Of a DNA stretch of 19,938 bases, positions 1 to 18,045 are shown piece by piece. A program made the position numbers and the translations under genes. Below the pieces are notes generated by a model. That model was not told where the DNA came from. It saw only the letters and a list, made by a program, of their open reading frames with translations, and made no database searches. Every line of letters starts with the position of its first letter. Positions within the stretch are counted from its first letter, which is position 1. Origin of the DNA: a virus (taxonomy: Duplodnaviria > Heunggongvirae > Uroviricota > Caudoviricetes); IMG/VR virus record IMGVR_UViG_2711768019_000002; one strand, 5' to 3'.

Positions 1-3000
1 ATACGCTATACCGTTAAAAATAATGGGCGGAATAATAATCTGGCGGTCAAAGTTATGATCATCGCTTATGGTGACTGTAACCGTCCCGTTTGGTGTTTCC
101 GTGTTACCCCACGTACCAGCCTGTTTCGGAAATGATTTGGATACAGCTTTAACGAAGTCACCTCTGACCTGAGTCGCCTCCAGCATGCCCTTAATCGTAC
201 AGTTTTCATTTACCGTGACATTGTTGAGCGTCCCGGCGTTCGCATTCACACTGCCACTGATATCCGCATTTTTAGCGGTCAGCTTTCCGTCCGGAGTCAG
301 GGAAAATGCCGATGGATTTCCACCGCTGGTAATGGTGGGGGCCGTCAGGCGTTTCAGGAACACGTCGTTCATGAATATCTGATCGCCCTGACCAACAAAC
401 ATCGGTTTTGTGTTGCCATTCGCAGGATTAACCATCGCAATCCTGTCCGCCGCCAGCAGCACCTGACTCTGCATGCCGTCAGGGGTGTTCTCAATACCGG
501 CACCAATACCCGCGATATAAAGGCGTCCGTCCTGCATCTGCTGCAGCTTCACAGCCCACATGCTGTTCAGGTTATTATTTGTATCAACCTGAACCTTCTG
601 TATCTGCTGAATTGCCGCACTCTGGTCTTCCAGTTTCTTATTGACGGTCTGCGTGATTTCATTGCTGACATCCGTAATGGACGTCCTGATTTCAGCCAGG
701 TCAGGCGCAAGCTGACCGTTATCAATCTGCGTCCACAGCTCCTGAGCCAGATGGGTTTTCCCTATCTCGCCTTTGAAAAAATCCAGATAACCGGATGCAT
801 CATCACTCGGCTGACCAACAGCCTCCACGAATGCCGATTTGCCAACGGTGTTCACACTGCGGATATAAAAGTAATAATCATGGCCCGGTTTGATATTGAT
901 ACTGGCGGCTATCCAGTACAGCGCCGTGCCAAGATAGCGTGCTGTGGTTTCAACCTGCCTGATATCCGCAATCCGCTTTTCCGAGAACCAGAACTCAAAC
1001 TGTACCGTCGGATCATAAACCGCAAGATGCGGCGTGGCGGTTATCTGAAAATAGCCCGGCGTCAGCTCAATCCGCGACAGCGCTGCCGGTGCGGCAATCC
1101 GGAACGATACCGACGCCGGATCGCCCTGCTGCCCCCACGCATTTACTGCCCGGACTGTCAGCCTGTAGTTCCCCAGCGCCAGTTGTGTGAAGCGGTAAGT
1201 GGTTTCCGTCGTCCGGGCCGTGCTGACCAGCCGCTCACTGCCGTCATCCGCTGTTACGGTCAGACGGAGCAGGAAGCTCACGCCCTTCACCACCTTCGGC
1301 GTGTCCCAGCGCGCCAGCACCTGATATTCCCCGCTGTCTGCGGTGACTTCGGCAGTCAGGTGCTGCACCGCTGGCGGCGTGACACCATTCACCGTGCCGC
1401 TCTGGTCGCCGTCAAAGTGCGCCCCGTTATCCACGATGGCTTCTTTTTCCGGCACATGCTGCACGGCGGTGATGGCATACGTGCCGTCGTCGTTCTCACG
1501 GATACTCACGCAGCGGAACAATCGCTGGTGCAGCGTCGGCAGCTTCAGCCCCCACACGCTGTATTCAGCAACACCGTCAGGAACACGGCTCACTTTTACC
1601 TTCACGCCGTCGGTGACGGACTGGACCTCCACGCTGACCGGATTCCCCTGCCCGTCAACCAGGCTTATCAGCGTGGTGCCGGAGGATGGCAGCGTGATTT
1701 CACGGTCGAGCGTCAGCGTCCGGGTCTGGCTGTTCACCGCCAGCACGCGCCCGCCGGTGCGGATACCGGCATAGTCATCATCGCAGATTTCAATGACATC
1801 GCCCGGTACATGACGAAGCCCTTCAGCACCCACGCTGAAATCCACGGTCTGCGTCTCCAGCAGTTCCGTTTTAATCAGCCACAGCCCGGCGCGGTGTGCC
1901 TGCCCCCGGCTGGTACAGCCAAAGGCATCCATCTTCGTGACGTTACGACCGTAACGGACAATGGCCTGCGTATCCTCCACAAGCTCTGTCGCCGTCTCCC
2001 AGCCGTTATCCGGGTCAATCCAGTTCACCTCAACGGCATTATGGCGGTCTTTCAGGGCGCTGAAACTGTAGCGGAACGGCGCGCCATCATCCGGCATCAC
2101 CACATTACTGCGGTTATAGGCCCACACCTTATCCGACTGTCGGTCCTGCACGAACGTCAGCGTCTGCCCGTTCCATACCGGCATACAGCGCATCGCCGAG
2201 CAGAAATCACTGAGCACATCCCACGCCTTGCGCTGTGTGGTCAGCCAGGCATTACAGGTGATGCGCGGCTCCGTGCTGCCAAAGCCGTCCGGCACCGACT
2301 GGTCACAGTACTGGCCGATGACATACAGCGCCCATTTATCCACATCTGCCGCACCAAGACGTTTCCCCATGCCATAGCGCGGATGGGTCAGCATATCCCA
2401 CAGACACCAGGCCATGTTGTTGCTGTATGCCGGTTTTAACGTTCCGTCCCAGATACCGCTGTATTGCCGCGTCTGCGGATTATAGTTCGACGGCACCTGC
2501 AGAATGCGCCCGCGAANNNNNNNNNNNNNNNNNNNNNNNNNNNNNNNNNNNNNNNNNNNNNNNNNNNNNNNNNNNNNNNNNNNNNNNNNNNNNNNNNNNN
2601 NNNNNNNNNNNNNNNNNNNNNNNNNNNNNNNNNNNNNNNNNNNNNNNNNNNNNNNNNNNNNNNNNNNNNNNNNNNNNNNNNNNNNNNNNNNNNNNNNNNN
2701 NNNNNNNNNNNNNNNNNNNNNNNNNNNNNNNNNNNNNNNNNNNNNNNNNNNNNNNNNNNNNNNNNNNNNNNNNNNNNNNNNNNNNNNNNNNNNNNNNNNN
2801 NNNNNNNNNNNNNNNNNNNNNNNNNNNNNNNNNNNNNNNNNNNNNNNACGCTGTATCTGAACCAGCAGGCGAACTTCAGACGGATTCCTGTCTCCCTTTG
2901 AGGTGGTTTCCACCAGTGCCTGTACACCGAAGGTAAAACGCAGTCGGTCAATGTTTGCCGACGTGATGGTCCGGGTGATCGGCGTGTCATATTTCACTTC

Positions 3001-3336: not shown

Positions 3337-4008
3337 TCAGCGACCAATCACCACAACCTGACCACCGTCCCCTTCGTCTGCCGTGCTGATCTCCTGAGAT
3401 ACCACACGTGACCCCACGCGCATTTCACCATACAGAACAGGCATAACATTGCCCTGGGCAACCATGTTATCCAGTGAGGAGAAATAGGTGTTCTGCTTAC
3501 CGTTATCCGTTGTCTGTGTGCGGGGAGTTCTGGCTTTCGGTGCCAGCATCTGAGCCACACCGCCGAGCACCATACTGGCACCGAGAGAAAACAGAATGCC
3601 GGTCATACCACCGGCACCAATGGCAGCCCCCCATGCTGCAAGGGTGGCTCCGGCGGTAAAGAATGATCCGGCAATGGCGGCTGCTCCCAGGACAATCTGG
3701 AATACACCACCTGACTTGGCCCCGGCGACTCTGGGAACAATATGAATCACAGCGCCGTCAGGCAGAGCCTCATGTAACTGTGCCGTTAATCCGGACGTGC
3801 TAACATCCTGCCCGGCAATACGCACCTGATACCAGCCGTCGCTCAGCTTCTGACGAAACGCAGGGAGCTGTGTGGCCATCGCCCGGATGGCTTCGGCACC
3901 CGTTTTCACACGAAGGTCGATGCGGCGGCCAAATCGTTGCAAATCCCCGTAAAGGCAGATGCGTGCCATGCCCGGTGACGCCAGAGGGAGTGTGTGCGTC
4001 GCTGCCAT
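3337..4008 (-). CDS. I: Tail tip assembly protein I (N-terminal ubiquitin-like domain, then Gly-Gly and a hydrophobic Gly/Ala-rich segment)
   Basis: 223-aa ORF beginning MAATHTLPLASPGMARICLYGDLQRF, same length and sequence as lambda gpI. Overlaps K 3' end by 103 nt as in lambda. Confidence 0.9.
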   Translation of the reverse strand: MAATHTLPLASPGMARICLYGDLQRFGRRIDLRVKTGAEAIRAMATQLPAFRQKLSDGWYQVRIAGQDVSTSGLTAQLHEALPDGAVIHIVPRVAGAKSGGVFQIVLGAAAIAGSFFTAGATLAAWGAAIGAGGMTGILFSLGASMVLGGVAQMLAPKARTPRTQTTDNGKQNTYFSSLDNMVAQGNVMPVLYGEMRVGSRVVSQEISTADEGDGGQVVVIGR

Positions 4009-4649
4009 TTGTCGGTATACCTCTCTCGTTTGCTCAGTTGTTCAGGAATATGGTGCAGCAGCTCGCCGTCACCACAGTAAATGGCGGCATGATTCGGCAC
4101 CGATGAACCAAAACAGCACAGCAGCACATCGCCCGGCTGCGCCGCTGACAACGGCACCTGATACAGCCCTGTGGCCTCCAGATTATCCAGATAGAGATTC
4201 TGACCGTGACGCCACCAGTCATCCTCACGATGAAAATCCGGCATCTCAATCCCCGCCAGATGGTAAGCATCCCGGAACAGCGTGTAACAGTCCGTCACCC
4301 CGTGCTCAAAGCGCCGCCCGGTAAGATGTGGCACACAGCGGAACTTGTGAATCGCCCCCCGGCAGACCAGCCACCACGGCAAATCACTCTGCACCTGCAG
4401 CCGCCGGTCGGCCTCACTCAGCCAGGGCAGACCACCGGGGTGGCTGTGGACCAGTGCCACAATCTCACCCTGCATCTCTGCCTGCAGCCAGTCTTCCGGC
4501 GACATACGGAAATACGCCTCCGGCTCACCGGAGATATTCACGCAGGGGAAATATCTTTCCCCCTCCGGCGTTCTTACCACGAAGCCGCACGACTCCGCTG
4601 GAGCACATCGCCGGGCGTGCGCCAGAATCGCTGATTCTGTCTCTGTCAT
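3906..4649 (-). CDS. K: Tail tip assembly protein K (JAB/MPN metallopeptidase domain plus NlpC/P60 domain); longest in-frame ORF. The canonical lambda-type start would be the ATG at 4503-4505 (199 aa).
   Basis: 247-aa ORF. Residues 49-247 correspond to the 199-aa lambda K. JAMM motif HSHPGGLPWLSEAD (HxH-x7-S-x2-D) present, with an upstream PAESCG motif in the N-terminal extension. The ATG at 4505 has a GGAGG Shine-Dalgarno ~11 nt upstream; the ATG at 4649 sits 5 nt after the L stop with no clear SD. Confidence 0.85.
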   Translation of the reverse strand: MTETESAILAHARRCAPAESCGFVVRTPEGERYFPCVNISGEPEAYFRMSPEDWLQAEMQGEIVALVHSHPGGLPWLSEADRRLQVQSDLPWWLVCRGAIHKFRCVPHLTGRRFEHGVTDCYTLFRDAYHLAGIEMPDFHREDDWWRHGQNLYLDNLEATGLYQVPLSAAQPGDVLLCCFGSSVPNHAAIYCGDGELLHHIPEQLSKRERYTDKWQRRTHSLWRHRAWHASAFTGICNDLAAASTFV

Positions 4650-4654
4650 GGGAT

Positions 4655-5353
4655 TTACTGCGAAAGTTTGTTAATGGAAAGGAAGCCGCCAAAGTTGCCG
4701 ACGTTATTGCGAAACTTACAGCCACTCAGGCATTTGCTGCATTTATCCTTCGTGATGTCGGACGTTGGCTGGTCATATTCATCCGCGACCGCCGGACCGT
4801 GATAACCGCACTCATCGCCGCGATAGGTCCAGGTGCAGGTGTTGGCCAGCATGATACGTCCCGGAAAAACAGCGCCATCTGTTTCCGTCGGCGTGGACAG
4901 TACAAAAGAGGCACTCACCGCGCTCAGTTCGCTGCACTGCTCAATGCGCCAGCGGCTGATCACCTCCTGCTCCGGATCGGCGTCACTGTTTCCGTTGACG
5001 AAGTTCACCGCATCCAGAAAACGGGCGTAAACCTTACGCCGGACCACCGTTCCGCCGACCAGACTCTGTAGATCTTCCGCCATCCCGGTGACCATACCGT
5101 ACAGGTTAGAAACCATCAGCGTGGGGCGCGTACTGGTGCCTTTGCCATTCAGTTCAAAACCACTCCCCTGAATGGGATACGGCTGATACTGTCGCCCCTG
5201 CCAGGTGACCGGCTCACCTTTTTCGTTCTGCTCATTACAGAAAAAATAACGTTCTCCACCGACCTCTGTCAGATCGATTTCCCAGAGCACCACGCTGGCC
5301 GACTGCTCCGCACGGGTGCATTCATTCAGTGTTTCCTGCCGGATATCCTGCAT
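4655..5353 (-). CDS. L: Tail tip assembly protein L (C-terminal Cys cluster)
   Basis: 232-aa ORF, MQDIRQETLNECTRAEQSAS..., same length as lambda gpL. ATGA start/stop overlap with M. Cysteines in C-terminal ...RGDECGYHG...DKCSKCLSGCKF. Confidence 0.92.
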   Translation of the reverse strand: MQDIRQETLNECTRAEQSASVVLWEIDLTEVGGERYFFCNEQNEKGEPVTWQGRQYQPYPIQGSGFELNGKGTSTRPTLMVSNLYGMVTGMAEDLQSLVGGTVVRRKVYARFLDAVNFVNGNSDADPEQEVISRWRIEQCSELSAVSASFVLSTPTETDGAVFPGRIMLANTCTWTYRGDECGYHGPAVADEYDQPTSDITKDKCSKCLSGCKFRNNVGNFGGFLSINKLSQ

Positions 5354-13650: not shown

Positions 13651-14344
13651 CCGGGACTGCAATGTTTCCCGGACATCATCCGGTAGATGGCTGTAGGGGT
13701 TGCCATCCACCTTATGGCTGCCGCTGTAAATCAGCGTGATTTCCACGCCCTGTTTCTCCAGTGCAGCGCCGTAATTACTGTGAGCCATCATGACGCCGAT
13801 GGAGCCTGTCCGGGCGGTCTGCGTGACCAGACGCCGGGAGGCGGCACTGGCAAGCAGCTGACCTGCGCTGCAGTTCATGTCATTGGCCAGCGCCCATACC
13901 GGCTTTATGTCACGCACACGGGCGATGATGTCAGCGCAGTCAAATGCTCCCGCCACCATTCCGCCCGGTGTGTCCATATCGAGCAGAATGCCGTCCACCA
14001 TCGGGTCGCTGGCAGCCTGTTGCAGACGGGCGATAATGCCGTTGTAACCGGTCATCCCCGAGTACGGCTGCAGCGCCCGCGTCCGGCTGACCAGCGTGCC
14101 GGACACCGGCAGCACGGCGATGCCGTTCATTACCTGATAACTGCGGGCCTGTCGTGGTCCGTCATCATCACCGGATAACGCCAGCGCCGCGGGTGCCTCT
14201 CCGGCAGTCAGGCTGTCGCCGGATACTGCATCCGTCAGGCAGCTGATCCCAAGCTGGCCTGCAAGCGCACAAAAGAAAACCCGCGCATAGGCGGGTTCAA
14301 GCATCAGCGGCTCATTAAAAGCCATGCTGGCAATATGCGGGAGA

Positions 14345-14364
<20 letters not shown>
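13045..14364 (-). CDS. C: Head maturation protease / scaffold C (peptidase S49 family), GTG start
   Basis: GTG at 14362-14364 begins VTAELRNLPHIASMAFNEPLMLEPAYARVFF..., 439 aa as in lambda gpC. Start lies inside the 3' end of B. Confidence 0.9.

Positions 14365-18045
<3,681 letters not shown>

What the first reader, a model, noticed from the sequence alone, without database searches (positions are those of the whole stretch)
3906..4649. K reading frame extends 48 codons upstream of the canonical start and the extension completes the JAB/MPN domain
The ORF containing K stays open from the canonical start (ATG at 4503-4505) up to an ATG at 4647-4649, 5 nt after the L stop. The extra 48 residues (MTETESAILAHARRCAPAESCGFVVRTPEGERYFPCVNISGEPEAYFR) contain an E-S-C-G motif preceded by a helix-like AILAHARR segment. 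That is the usual N-terminal signature of prokaryotic JAB/JAMM peptidases, where a catalytic Glu sits roughly 50 residues before the HxH-x7-S-x2-D zinc site. Here the zinc motif is HSHPGGLPWLSEAD, only ~20 residues into the 199-aa version, too close to the N-terminus for a complete MPN fold. If the lambda coordinates I recall are right (L ends 14127, K starts 14276, a 148-nt spacer), this window has a 149-nt spacer. That one extra nucleotide is what puts the upstream codons in frame with K. Counter-evidence: the canonical ATG has a good GGAGG Shine-Dalgarno and the upstream ATG does not.
Basis: partly seen in the sequence, partly recalled or inferred. Interest (0 to 1): 0.6.

Follow-up and report, generated by a model that had tools for sequence, protein, structure and literature searches.

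The report
Full-length lambda-type tail protein K
The tail-assembly gene K in this lambda-like prophage really is 247 codons long and its first 48 codons complete a metalloprotease (JAB/MPN) domain. This is already the standard gene model in public databases. The familiar 199-codon version comes from one base missing in the 1982 lambda reference sequence.

Summary
An ORF of 247 codons (3906-4649, minus strand) starts at an ATG 5 nt after the L stop. The lambda reference NC_001416 lacks one G here (window 4515), which splits the frame and gave the 199-aa K.

- Pfam Prok-JAB aligns from residue 4 (52.6 bits) in the long form, and falls below threshold (22.9 bits) in the short form.
- The catalytic set E19/H68/H70/S78/D81 is invariant in 23 homologues down to 44% identity.
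- The upstream ATG sits next to the L stop in all 23. The 'canonical' Met49 is Ile or Leu in 12 of them.
- Synonymous change exceeds non-synonymous change in the extension in diverged comparisons.
- The AlphaFold model of the long form gives a confident MPN fold. In the short form the JAB remnant does not fold.
- Every independent re-sequencing of lambda that covers the site carries the extra G: 4 phage records aligned at the site and 15 contaminant contigs.

It is not new. RefSeq annotates the 247-aa 'C40 family peptidase' in prophages present in 4374 of 5426 complete E. coli genomes. The exact protein of this window is already in NCBI. The JAB + NlpC/P60 architecture of K was published in 2003-2006. 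The remaining value is curatorial: the lambda reference entry is still truncated.

The parts
3906..4649 (-). Full-length K homologue, 247 codons plus stop. It is a two-peptidase tail-tip assembly protein.
   Evidence: ORF list; Pfam Prok-JAB plus NlpC/P60; phrog_30 match over residues 1-247, E = 6e-164; the identical protein is in NCBI as 'C40 family peptidase'.
4506..4649 (-). The 48-codon N-terminal segment that the lambda reference annotation leaves out. It encodes helix 3-15 and strands 19-27 and 30-35 of the MPN fold, including the catalytic Glu19 (codon 4595-4593).
   Evidence: Model pLDDT 86-94 over residues 1-40. E19, C21 and G22 are invariant in 23 of 23 homologues. pS exceeds pN in diverged pairs.
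4356..4640 (-). JAB/MPN+ (JAMM) metalloprotease domain, residues 4-98.
   Evidence: Pfam PF14464, 52.6 bits. PDB sequence matches 2kks and 2kcq start at residue 4. Foldseek matches to Rpn11, CSN5, AMSH and PfJAMM1.
4407..4448 (-). Zinc-site motif H68-S-H70-x7-S78-x2-D81.
   Evidence: Read from the sequence; invariant in 23 of 23 homologues.
3978..4319 (-). NlpC/P60 (C40) papain-like peptidase domain, residues 111-224, with C121, H187 and H199.
   Evidence: Pfam PF00877, 49.2 bits; all three residues invariant in 23 of 23.
4650..4654 (-). 5-nt L-K junction (ATCCC) with no Shine-Dalgarno motif. It is the likely site of translational coupling from L.
   Evidence: Gaps were computed for 11 diverged loci: 3-11 nt in 9, one overlap, one of 35 nt.
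4515..4515 (-). The G that is absent from J02459 / NC_001416 (between lambda 14266 and 14267). Its absence splits K in the reference.
   Evidence: Alignments. It is present in 4 aligned lambda-derived phage records and in 15 contaminant lambda contigs.
4503..4505 (-). Internal ATG (Met49), the start of the 199-aa reference model.
   Evidence: The aligned codon is CTG in L026, ATC in L033 and ATH in 10 distant loci.
4517..4521 (-). GGAGG, 11 nt before the internal ATG. It is formed by the codons for E-P-E.
   Evidence: It is present only in the close lambda group and absent from L037, L038, L041 and L056, although these keep Met49.
4655..5353 (-). Gene L (minor tail protein L), directly upstream.
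   Evidence: Pfam Phage_tail_L, E = 1e-100.
3337..4008 (-). Gene I (ubiquitin-like domain plus a C-terminal tail-tip plug). It overlaps K by 103 nt (3906-4008) and is the likely substrate of K.
   Evidence: Pfam Lambda_tail_I, residues 14-97; conserved GAKSGG at residues 96-101; Iyer et al. 2006, PMC1779556.

Best explanation
Gene K of this lambda-like prophage is one 247-codon gene (3906-4649, minus strand). It starts at the ATG 5 nt after the L stop. The likeliest route of initiation is ribosomes that have just finished L (translational coupling), because no Shine-Dalgarno motif precedes this ATG.

The product has two peptidase domains. The N-terminal one is a complete JAMM/MPN+ zinc metalloprotease (residues about 1-105; Glu19, His68, His70, Ser78, Asp81). 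The C-terminal one is an NlpC/P60 cysteine peptidase (residues about 111-224; Cys121, His187, His199).

The textbook 199-aa K comes from one G missing in the 1982 lambda sequence. The gap breaks the frame 10 nt before Met49, and the short model has been copied into other records by annotation transfer.

Shown here: the frame, the domain completeness, the conservation, and the status of the reference base.

Inferred, not shown: translational coupling; catalytic activity; and the proposal of Iyer et al. 2006 that the JAB domain removes the ubiquitin-like N-terminal domain of gpI. I place that cut after the conserved Gly-Gly at residues 100-101, which would leave the C-terminal part of gpI as the plug seen in the tail tip.
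For: 1. Pfam: Prok-JAB covers residues 4-98 (profile 4-103 of 114) at 52.6 bits in the 247-aa form. In the 199-aa form it scores 22.9 bits, below the cut-off, and covers only profile 63-103. NCBIfam desampylase matches residues 3-114 in the long form only.

2. Conservation: E19, H68, H70, S78, D81, C121, H187 and H199 are invariant in 23 homologues of 44-98% identity. The upstream ATG abuts the L stop in all 23. Met49 is Ile or Leu in 12 of 23, and the GGAGG is confined to the close lambda group.

3. Selection in codons 2-48: window vs L033 gives pS 0.366 and pN 0.047; window vs L037 gives 0.570 and 0.275.

4. Distant cluster representatives (34-50% identity, 230-260 aa) align from query residues 4-10 to their own residues 3-15.

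5. Structure: in the 247-aa model, residues 1-40 have pLDDT 86-94 and form a helix and two strands. Foldseek finds Rpn11, CSN5, AMSH and PfJAMM1, the last at TM 0.60. In the 199-aa model, residues 1-71 have pLDDT below 50.

6. The reference base: four lambda-derived phage records aligned at the site (OM418626, PV340536, KT232076, DE3) carry the G; in LC730321 a 232-base match and a 48,503-bp record length imply it. Fifteen lambda contaminant contigs from unrelated assemblies show 0 mismatches and exactly one gap against NC_001416 13300-15600.

7. No promoter-like site, no Rfam match, and terminator-like sites at chance level in the supposed spacer.

8. For the gpI link: GAKxGG is conserved down to 36% identity, and cryo-EM resolves gpI only from residue 101 onward (PMC11101478).
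Against: - The upstream ATG has no Shine-Dalgarno motif in the lambda group, while the internal ATG has GGAGG, though at a long 11-nt spacing.
- Two GenBank lambda records, OR974322 and OR474059, agree with the reference at this site. One shares the reference's exact gene coordinates and the other is marked UNVERIFIED and unannotated, so both look reference-derived.
- No protein-level or ribosome-profiling data could be consulted. gpK was not detected in virions by mass spectrometry (PMC10721106).
- Peptidase activity of either domain and cleavage of gpI have never been shown, as far as I could find.
Confidence: 0.9

Rival explanations
1. Two nested products. Alongside the 247-aa protein, lambda-group phages also start at Met49 using the GGAGG. 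This would give a 199-aa isoform that lacks a functional JAB domain, comparable to the in-frame pairs C/Nu3 and S107/S105 in lambda.
For: GGAGG lies 11 nt before an in-frame ATG in the window, lambda, 434, 2B8 and close relatives. Gene callers often choose this start: the 199-aa clusters P0059-P0061 and P0070 hold thousands of members.
Against: Met49 is CTG in L026 (96% identical), ATC in L033, and Ile in 10 distant homologues. The GGAGG is absent from L037, L038, L041 and L056, so nothing conserves this start beyond its coding role (E-P-E ... M). The 11-nt spacing is longer than the 5-9 nt optimum for E. coli (general knowledge). The truncated JAB remnant is predicted not to fold.
Confidence: 0.12
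2. The 199-aa model is the only real product. On this view the 144 nt upstream are an untranslated L-K spacer that happens to be open in frame.
For: The historical lambda annotation. The Shine-Dalgarno motif sits at the internal ATG and there is none at the upstream one.
Against: The extension matches protein families on its own at E = 7e-32. It carries the invariant catalytic Glu and evolves with pS above pN. It is needed to reach the Pfam threshold. Twelve of 23 homologues have no start codon at position 49.
Confidence: 0.03
3. The reference is correct for the stock that was sequenced. On this view the 1982 cI857 S7 DNA really carried a 1-nt deletion, so K works without an intact JAB domain, and the G in other stocks is the ancestral allele.
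For: Feiss et al. [quoted passage not shown] OR974322 and OR474059 match the reference.
Against: All 15 contaminant contigs that cover the site, from 15 unrelated genome projects, carry the G, with 0 other differences over up to 2.3 kb. Their source is probably commercial lambda DNA, which is an inference. No independent assembly lacks the G. The two concordant records look reference-derived. This rival concerns lambda only and does not affect the reading of the window.
Confidence: 0.05

Closest known systems
Phage lambda gpK (tail tip assembly protein K; NP_040598.1, annotated as 199 aa)
   Same: It is the same gene in the same L-K-I-J order. It is 97% identical over 247 residues once the missing G is restored.
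   Different: The reference entry starts at Met49 because the 1982 sequence lacks one G. The window, like every re-sequenced lambda that covers the site, encodes 48 more N-terminal residues.
RefSeq 'C40 family peptidase', 247 aa (WP_002431209.1, WP_000194780.1, YP_009909851.1)
   Same: Same length, same start next to the L stop, same two Pfam domains. The window's exact sequence is in NCBI under this name, on at least 1000 contigs.
   Different: Nothing of substance. The name mentions only the C-terminal domain.
[quoted passage not shown] 2003, PMC300881)
   Same: K is JAB plus NlpC/P60 and sits next to the ubiquitin-like protein I. K is proposed to process I.
   Different: In what I could read of these papers, none mentions that the lambda reference K is truncated or why.
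Archaeal JAMM/MPN+ desampylases (HvJAMM1; Pyrococcus furiosus JAMM1, PDB 5LD9 and 5LDA)
   Same: Compact stand-alone MPN+ fold with the E...HxH-x7-S-x2-D site. They cleave after the Gly-Gly of ubiquitin-like proteins. Foldseek gives TM 0.60-0.61 and rmsd 3.1-3.4 over about 110 columns. The NCBIfam desampylase model matches at E = 7e-7, but below its cut-off.
   Different: K's JAB domain is fused to an NlpC/P60 peptidase and acts in tail assembly. The presumed substrate is a ubiquitin-like domain fused in line within gpI, not a SAMP conjugate. K is not a member of the desampylase equivalog (29 bits against a cut-off of 130).
Eukaryotic JAMM deubiquitinases Rpn11, CSN5 and AMSH
   Same: Fold and zinc-site motif.
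   Different: They are larger, work inside multi-subunit complexes, and share only 14-24% identity.

Membership tests
JAMM/MPN+ metalloprotease (Pfam Prok-JAB PF14464) | Score above the Pfam gathering threshold over most of the model | tested here: met
   52.6 bits against a cut-off of 25; residues 4-98 match profile 4-103 of 114. The 199-aa form fails at 22.9 bits.
JAMM/MPN+ metalloprotease (Pfam Prok-JAB PF14464) | Complete E-xn-H-S/T-H-x7-S-x2-D motif | tested here: met
   E19, H68, S69, H70, S78 and D81 are invariant in 23 of 23 homologues. E19 aligns with the Glu of ...P.E.CG... in PDB 2kks and 2kcq.
JAMM/MPN+ metalloprotease (Pfam Prok-JAB PF14464) | MPN fold | tested here: met
   Predicted only. 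The AF2 model has pLDDT 79 overall and 86-94 over residues 1-40. Foldseek probability is 1.0 to Rpn11, CSN5, AMSH and PfJAMM1.
JAMM/MPN+ metalloprotease (Pfam Prok-JAB PF14464) | Zinc binding and (iso)peptidase activity | not testable with these tools
   Needs biochemistry.
NlpC/P60 (MEROPS C40) peptidase | Score above the Pfam gathering threshold | tested here: met
   PF00877 at 49.2 bits against a cut-off of 23; residues 111-224 match profile 1-105 of 105.
NlpC/P60 (MEROPS C40) peptidase | Catalytic Cys-His plus a third polar residue | tested here: met
   C121, H187 and H199 are invariant in 23 of 23. The assignment rests on position within the Pfam match, not on a structural superposition.
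Lambda gpK-type tail tip assembly protein | Close sequence relationship to lambda K | tested here: met
   97% identity to lambda K over 247 residues; phrog_30 at E = 6e-164.
Lambda gpK-type tail tip assembly protein | Position between L and I, upstream of J | tested here: met
   Order H-M-L-K-I-J on the minus strand.
Lambda gpK-type tail tip assembly protein | Required for tail assembly and absent from the virion | not testable with these tools
   Literature on lambda only (PMC10721106 and PMC12617516).
Desampylase equivalog (NCBIfam NF041370) | Score above the curated cut-off | tested here: not met
   29.2 bits against a cut-off of 130. It is a related fold and motif, not a member.

The most novel reading that the evidence does not exclude
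In the close lambda group the in-frame internal start (GGAGG-N11-ATG, Met49) may be used as well as the upstream start. K would then be a nested gene pair. The 247-aa enzyme would have an active JAMM domain. The 199-aa isoform would be JAB-dead and might modulate or cap processing of the ubiquitin-like protein gpI during tail-tip assembly.
Probability: 0.1. Interest if true: 0.45.

Novelty: already known. Interest (0 to 1): 0.2.

Why it matters
The role of K in lambda tail assembly is still undefined. Recent cryo-EM papers say only that its location is unknown or that it is probably non-structural. Work that starts from the reference or UniProt sequence uses a protein that lacks the catalytic Glu and three core elements of its JAB domain. 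Constructs, structure predictions and mutant designs built on the 199-aa model would therefore be misleading.

With the full 247-aa protein, the 2006 hypothesis becomes directly testable: a phage-encoded JAMM peptidase trims the ubiquitin-like domain of gpI. Two observations fit it. The Gly-Gly at gpI residues 100-101 is conserved, and cryo-EM density of gpI begins at residue 101.

None of this is new biology in this window. The practical outcome is a correction that the lambda reference entries still need.

Tried and rejected
- I looked for a regulatory element that would justify a 149-nt L-K spacer. There is no promoter-like site, one terminator-like hit inside L at chance level, and no Rfam match at E up to 1. 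Rejected.
- I looked for a paper that states explicitly that lambda K is N-terminally truncated by a reference error. Searches found the domain papers and the '9 differences' remark, but no explicit statement. Casjens and Hendrix 2015 (PMC4424060) and the lambda ribosome-profiling paper (tried as PMC3718152, an id recalled from memory) are not held. I therefore cannot say whether it has been spelled out in print.
- The GenBank note on the phage 434 K CDS ('This start has ...') is cut off in the tool output.
- I considered that the extra G might be a polymorphism private to this prophage. Rejected: it is the universal state.
- I considered programmed frameshifting in lambda to join the two frames. 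It is unnecessary, because real lambda DNA has the G.

Full report
WHAT IS THERE

The window carries the left (morphogenetic) arm of a lambda-like prophage on the minus strand, in the order Nu1-A ... H-M-L-K-I-J. The ORF 3906..4649 (-) is 247 codons long. Its ATG (4649-4647) lies 5 nt after the TAA of L (4657-4655). The ATG that corresponds to the lambda reference start of K is at 4505-4503, with GGAGG at 4521-4517.

THE ONE-NUCLEOTIDE DIFFERENCE

In NC_001416, L ends at 14127 and K is 14276..14875 (199 aa), so the spacer is 148 nt. In the window it is 149 nt. Alignment places the difference at a single G. The reference reads GGAGGC-TATTTCC and the window reads GGAGGCGTATTTCC (window 4515, between lambda 14266 and 14267). 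Phages 2B8 and 434 also have an extra base at this site (A and G respectively). In the reference, the upstream ATG opens a 76-codon ORF that runs out of frame into K.

THE REFERENCE IS THE ODD ONE OUT

- Only J02459 / NC_001416, OR474059 and OR974322 match the reference exactly across the site.
- Four lambda-derived records aligned at the site carry the G: lambda imm434 OM418626, lambda PV340536, lambda KT232076 and DE3.
- For LC730321, the 232-base match and the 48,503-bp record length imply the G.
- A scan of one genome per bacterial species returned many low-coverage contigs in unrelated organisms (Shewanella, Pseudomonas, Neobacillus, Chromatium, Leeuwenhoekiella, Paenibacillus, Bradyrhizobium and others). 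These are plainly lambda DNA contamination.
- Fifteen of those contigs cover the site. Each shows 0 mismatches and exactly one gap against NC_001416 13300-15600. None lacks the G.
- The two concordant records look reference-derived. One keeps the reference's exact gene coordinates and the other is UNVERIFIED and unannotated.
- Feiss et al. [quoted passage not shown]

The simplest reading is a base missed in 1982. A mutation private to the sequenced stock cannot be excluded.

DOES THE EXTENSION COMPLETE THE JAB DOMAIN?

Yes, on five lines of evidence.

1. Profile searches.
   - Pfam Prok-JAB aligns residues 4-98 to profile positions 4-103 of 114 at 52.6 bits (cut-off 25).
   - The 199-aa form matches only profile 63-103 at 22.9 bits, below the cut-off.
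   - NlpC/P60 scores about the same in both forms.
   - The NCBIfam desampylase model matches residues 3-114 in the long form only, and below its cut-off.
   - A profile of 16 homologues finds the solved MPN proteins 2kks and 2kcq from residue 4. The ...P-x-E-x-C-G... segment aligns with theirs.

2. Conservation. I examined 23 homologues of 44-98% identity, from Escherichia, Shigella, Citrobacter, Edwardsiella, Budvicia, Providencia, Xenorhabdus, Limnobaculum and Pasteurellaceae.
   - E19, H68, H70, S78 and D81 are invariant.
   - C121, H187 and H199 of the cysteine peptidase are also invariant.
   - All 23 have an ATG next to the L stop. In the 11 diverged loci where I computed it, the gap is mostly 3-11 nt.
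   - The codon aligned with Met49 is CTG in one prophage that is 96% identical, ATC in E. albertii, and Ile in ten distant homologues.
   - The GGAGG is simply the codons for E-P-E. It disappears outside the close lambda group.

3. Selection. In codons 2-48, synonymous differences exceed non-synonymous ones in diverged comparisons. Window vs L033 gives pS 0.366 and pN 0.047. Window vs L037 gives 0.570 and 0.275.

4. Distant relatives. Cluster representatives of 34-50% identity and 230-260 aa align from query residues 4-10 to their own residues 3-15.

5. Structure prediction.
   - The 247-aa model (pLDDT 79) places helix 3-15 and strands 19-27 and 30-35 at pLDDT 86-94.
   - It matches Rpn11, CSN5, AMSH and Pyrococcus JAMM1, the last at TM 0.60.
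   - With the same alignment, the 199-aa form gives pLDDT below 50 for its first 71 residues.
   - This is a prediction, not proof. It agrees with the loss of three core elements of the fold.

HOW IT PROBABLY WORKS

The upstream ATG has no Shine-Dalgarno motif in the lambda group. It sits 5 nt after the L stop in a tightly packed operon, the usual arrangement for translational coupling. This step is inferred. Several distant homologues do have AGGA- or GAGG-like motifs overlapping the end of L.

The protein joins a JAMM/MPN+ metalloprotease to an NlpC/P60 peptidase. Next to it, and overlapping it by 103 nt, lies gene I. The N-terminal domain of gpI is ubiquitin-like (Pfam Lambda_tail_I, residues 14-97) and ends in a conserved ...IVPRxAGAKSGG (residues 90-101). 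That motif is kept down to 36% identity.

Iyer, Burroughs and Aravind (2006) proposed that the JAB domain of K releases the ubiquitin-like domain of I. Cryo-EM of the lambda tail tip resolves gpI only from residue 101 onward and does not see K (PMC11101478 and PMC10721106). That fits cleavage after the Gly-Gly, but a flexible uncleaved domain would explain it equally well. Activity and substrate remain untested.

RIVALS

- A second, shorter product from Met49 in lambda-group phages cannot be excluded, because the GGAGG is a strong motif. The spacing is long (11 nt), the start is not conserved, and the truncated JAB remnant is not predicted to fold. I give it about 0.12.
- The view that only the 199-aa product exists is contradicted by every test above. 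I give it 0.03.
- The supposed spacer holds no promoter, terminator or Rfam signal.

COMPARISON WITH WHAT IS KNOWN

- The 247-aa model is the norm. The largest protein clusters are 247 aa with PF14464 plus PF00877 (12,883, 9,427, 6,975 and 5,673 members).
- RefSeq annotates a 744-nt 'C40 family peptidase' in lambdoid phages and prophages, including one in a K-12-derived J53 strain.
- The gene is present in 4374 of 5426 complete E. coli genomes, with a median of 3 copies.
- The window's exact protein, and the 247-aa lambda K itself, are already in NCBI. One of the names given is 'Predicted metal-dependent protease of the PAD1/JAB1 superfamily'.
- K was listed among JAMM-motif proteins in 2003 (PMC300881). 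It was described as JAB plus NlpC/P60 in 2006, citing a 2003 NlpC/P60 survey.
- Annotation remains inconsistent: 199 aa in NC_001416, DE3 and lambda imm434; 211 aa in KT232076; 247 aa in 434, 2B8 and PV340536.
- I found no paper that states outright that the reference K is truncated. The two most likely sources could not be read.

VERDICT

It is a sound piece of sequence reading. It rediscovers the standard gene model and exposes a 40-year-old one-base flaw in the lambda reference. Its value is curatorial and practical for anyone working on gpK. It is not a new biological feature of this window.

Noticed in passing
window 2517-2847: A run of 331 N (a masked stretch) lies inside gene J. Apart from that, the J frame is open from about 3276 down to the window edge.
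   Followed up: partly
window 3906-4008 (K/I overlap); L037-L056: K and I overlap by 103 nt in different frames. An overlap of roughly 70-105 nt persists in homologues down to about 35-45% identity. Public records disagree on the I start: 672, 648 or 573 nt. The 573-nt model (PV340536, NZ_CP110999) begins at Val34 and cuts into the ubiquitin-like domain, which starts at residue 14.
   Followed up: partly
window 3706-3741 (gpI residues 90-101): The motif IVPRxAGAKSGG at the end of the ubiquitin-like domain of gpI is conserved down to 36% identity. It coincides with the first residue of gpI resolved by cryo-EM (101). This fits cleavage after Gly-Gly by K's JAB domain, which is untested.
   Followed up: partly
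L011, L013-L015, L017-L022, L031, L032, L034, L035, L052 (genome contigs): At least 15 species-representative assemblies of unrelated bacteria contain low-coverage contigs that are phage lambda DNA, with 0 mismatches to NC_001416 over up to 2.3 kb. Examples are Shewanella canadensis, Pseudomonas spp., Neobacillus, Chromatium, Leeuwenhoekiella, Paenibacillus and Bradyrhizobium. This is laboratory contamination or spike-in. It probably explains the NCBI name 'MULTISPECIES: C40 family peptidase [Bacteria]'.
   Followed up: yes
protein clusters P0024, P0031, P0047 (L-K) and P0015, P0032, P0086 (K-I): The protein database holds fused L-K and K-I gene models of 311-431 aa. They are probably frameshifted assemblies or read-through calls. 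Iyer et al. 2006 also reported a TAPI fused to a JAB domain in one E. coli prophage.
   Followed up: no
L061-L063 (Pantoea): Three Pantoea loci match only residues 8-103 of K (about 50% identity) in ORFs of about 119 codons. These would be stand-alone JAB proteins without the NlpC/P60 domain.
   Followed up: no
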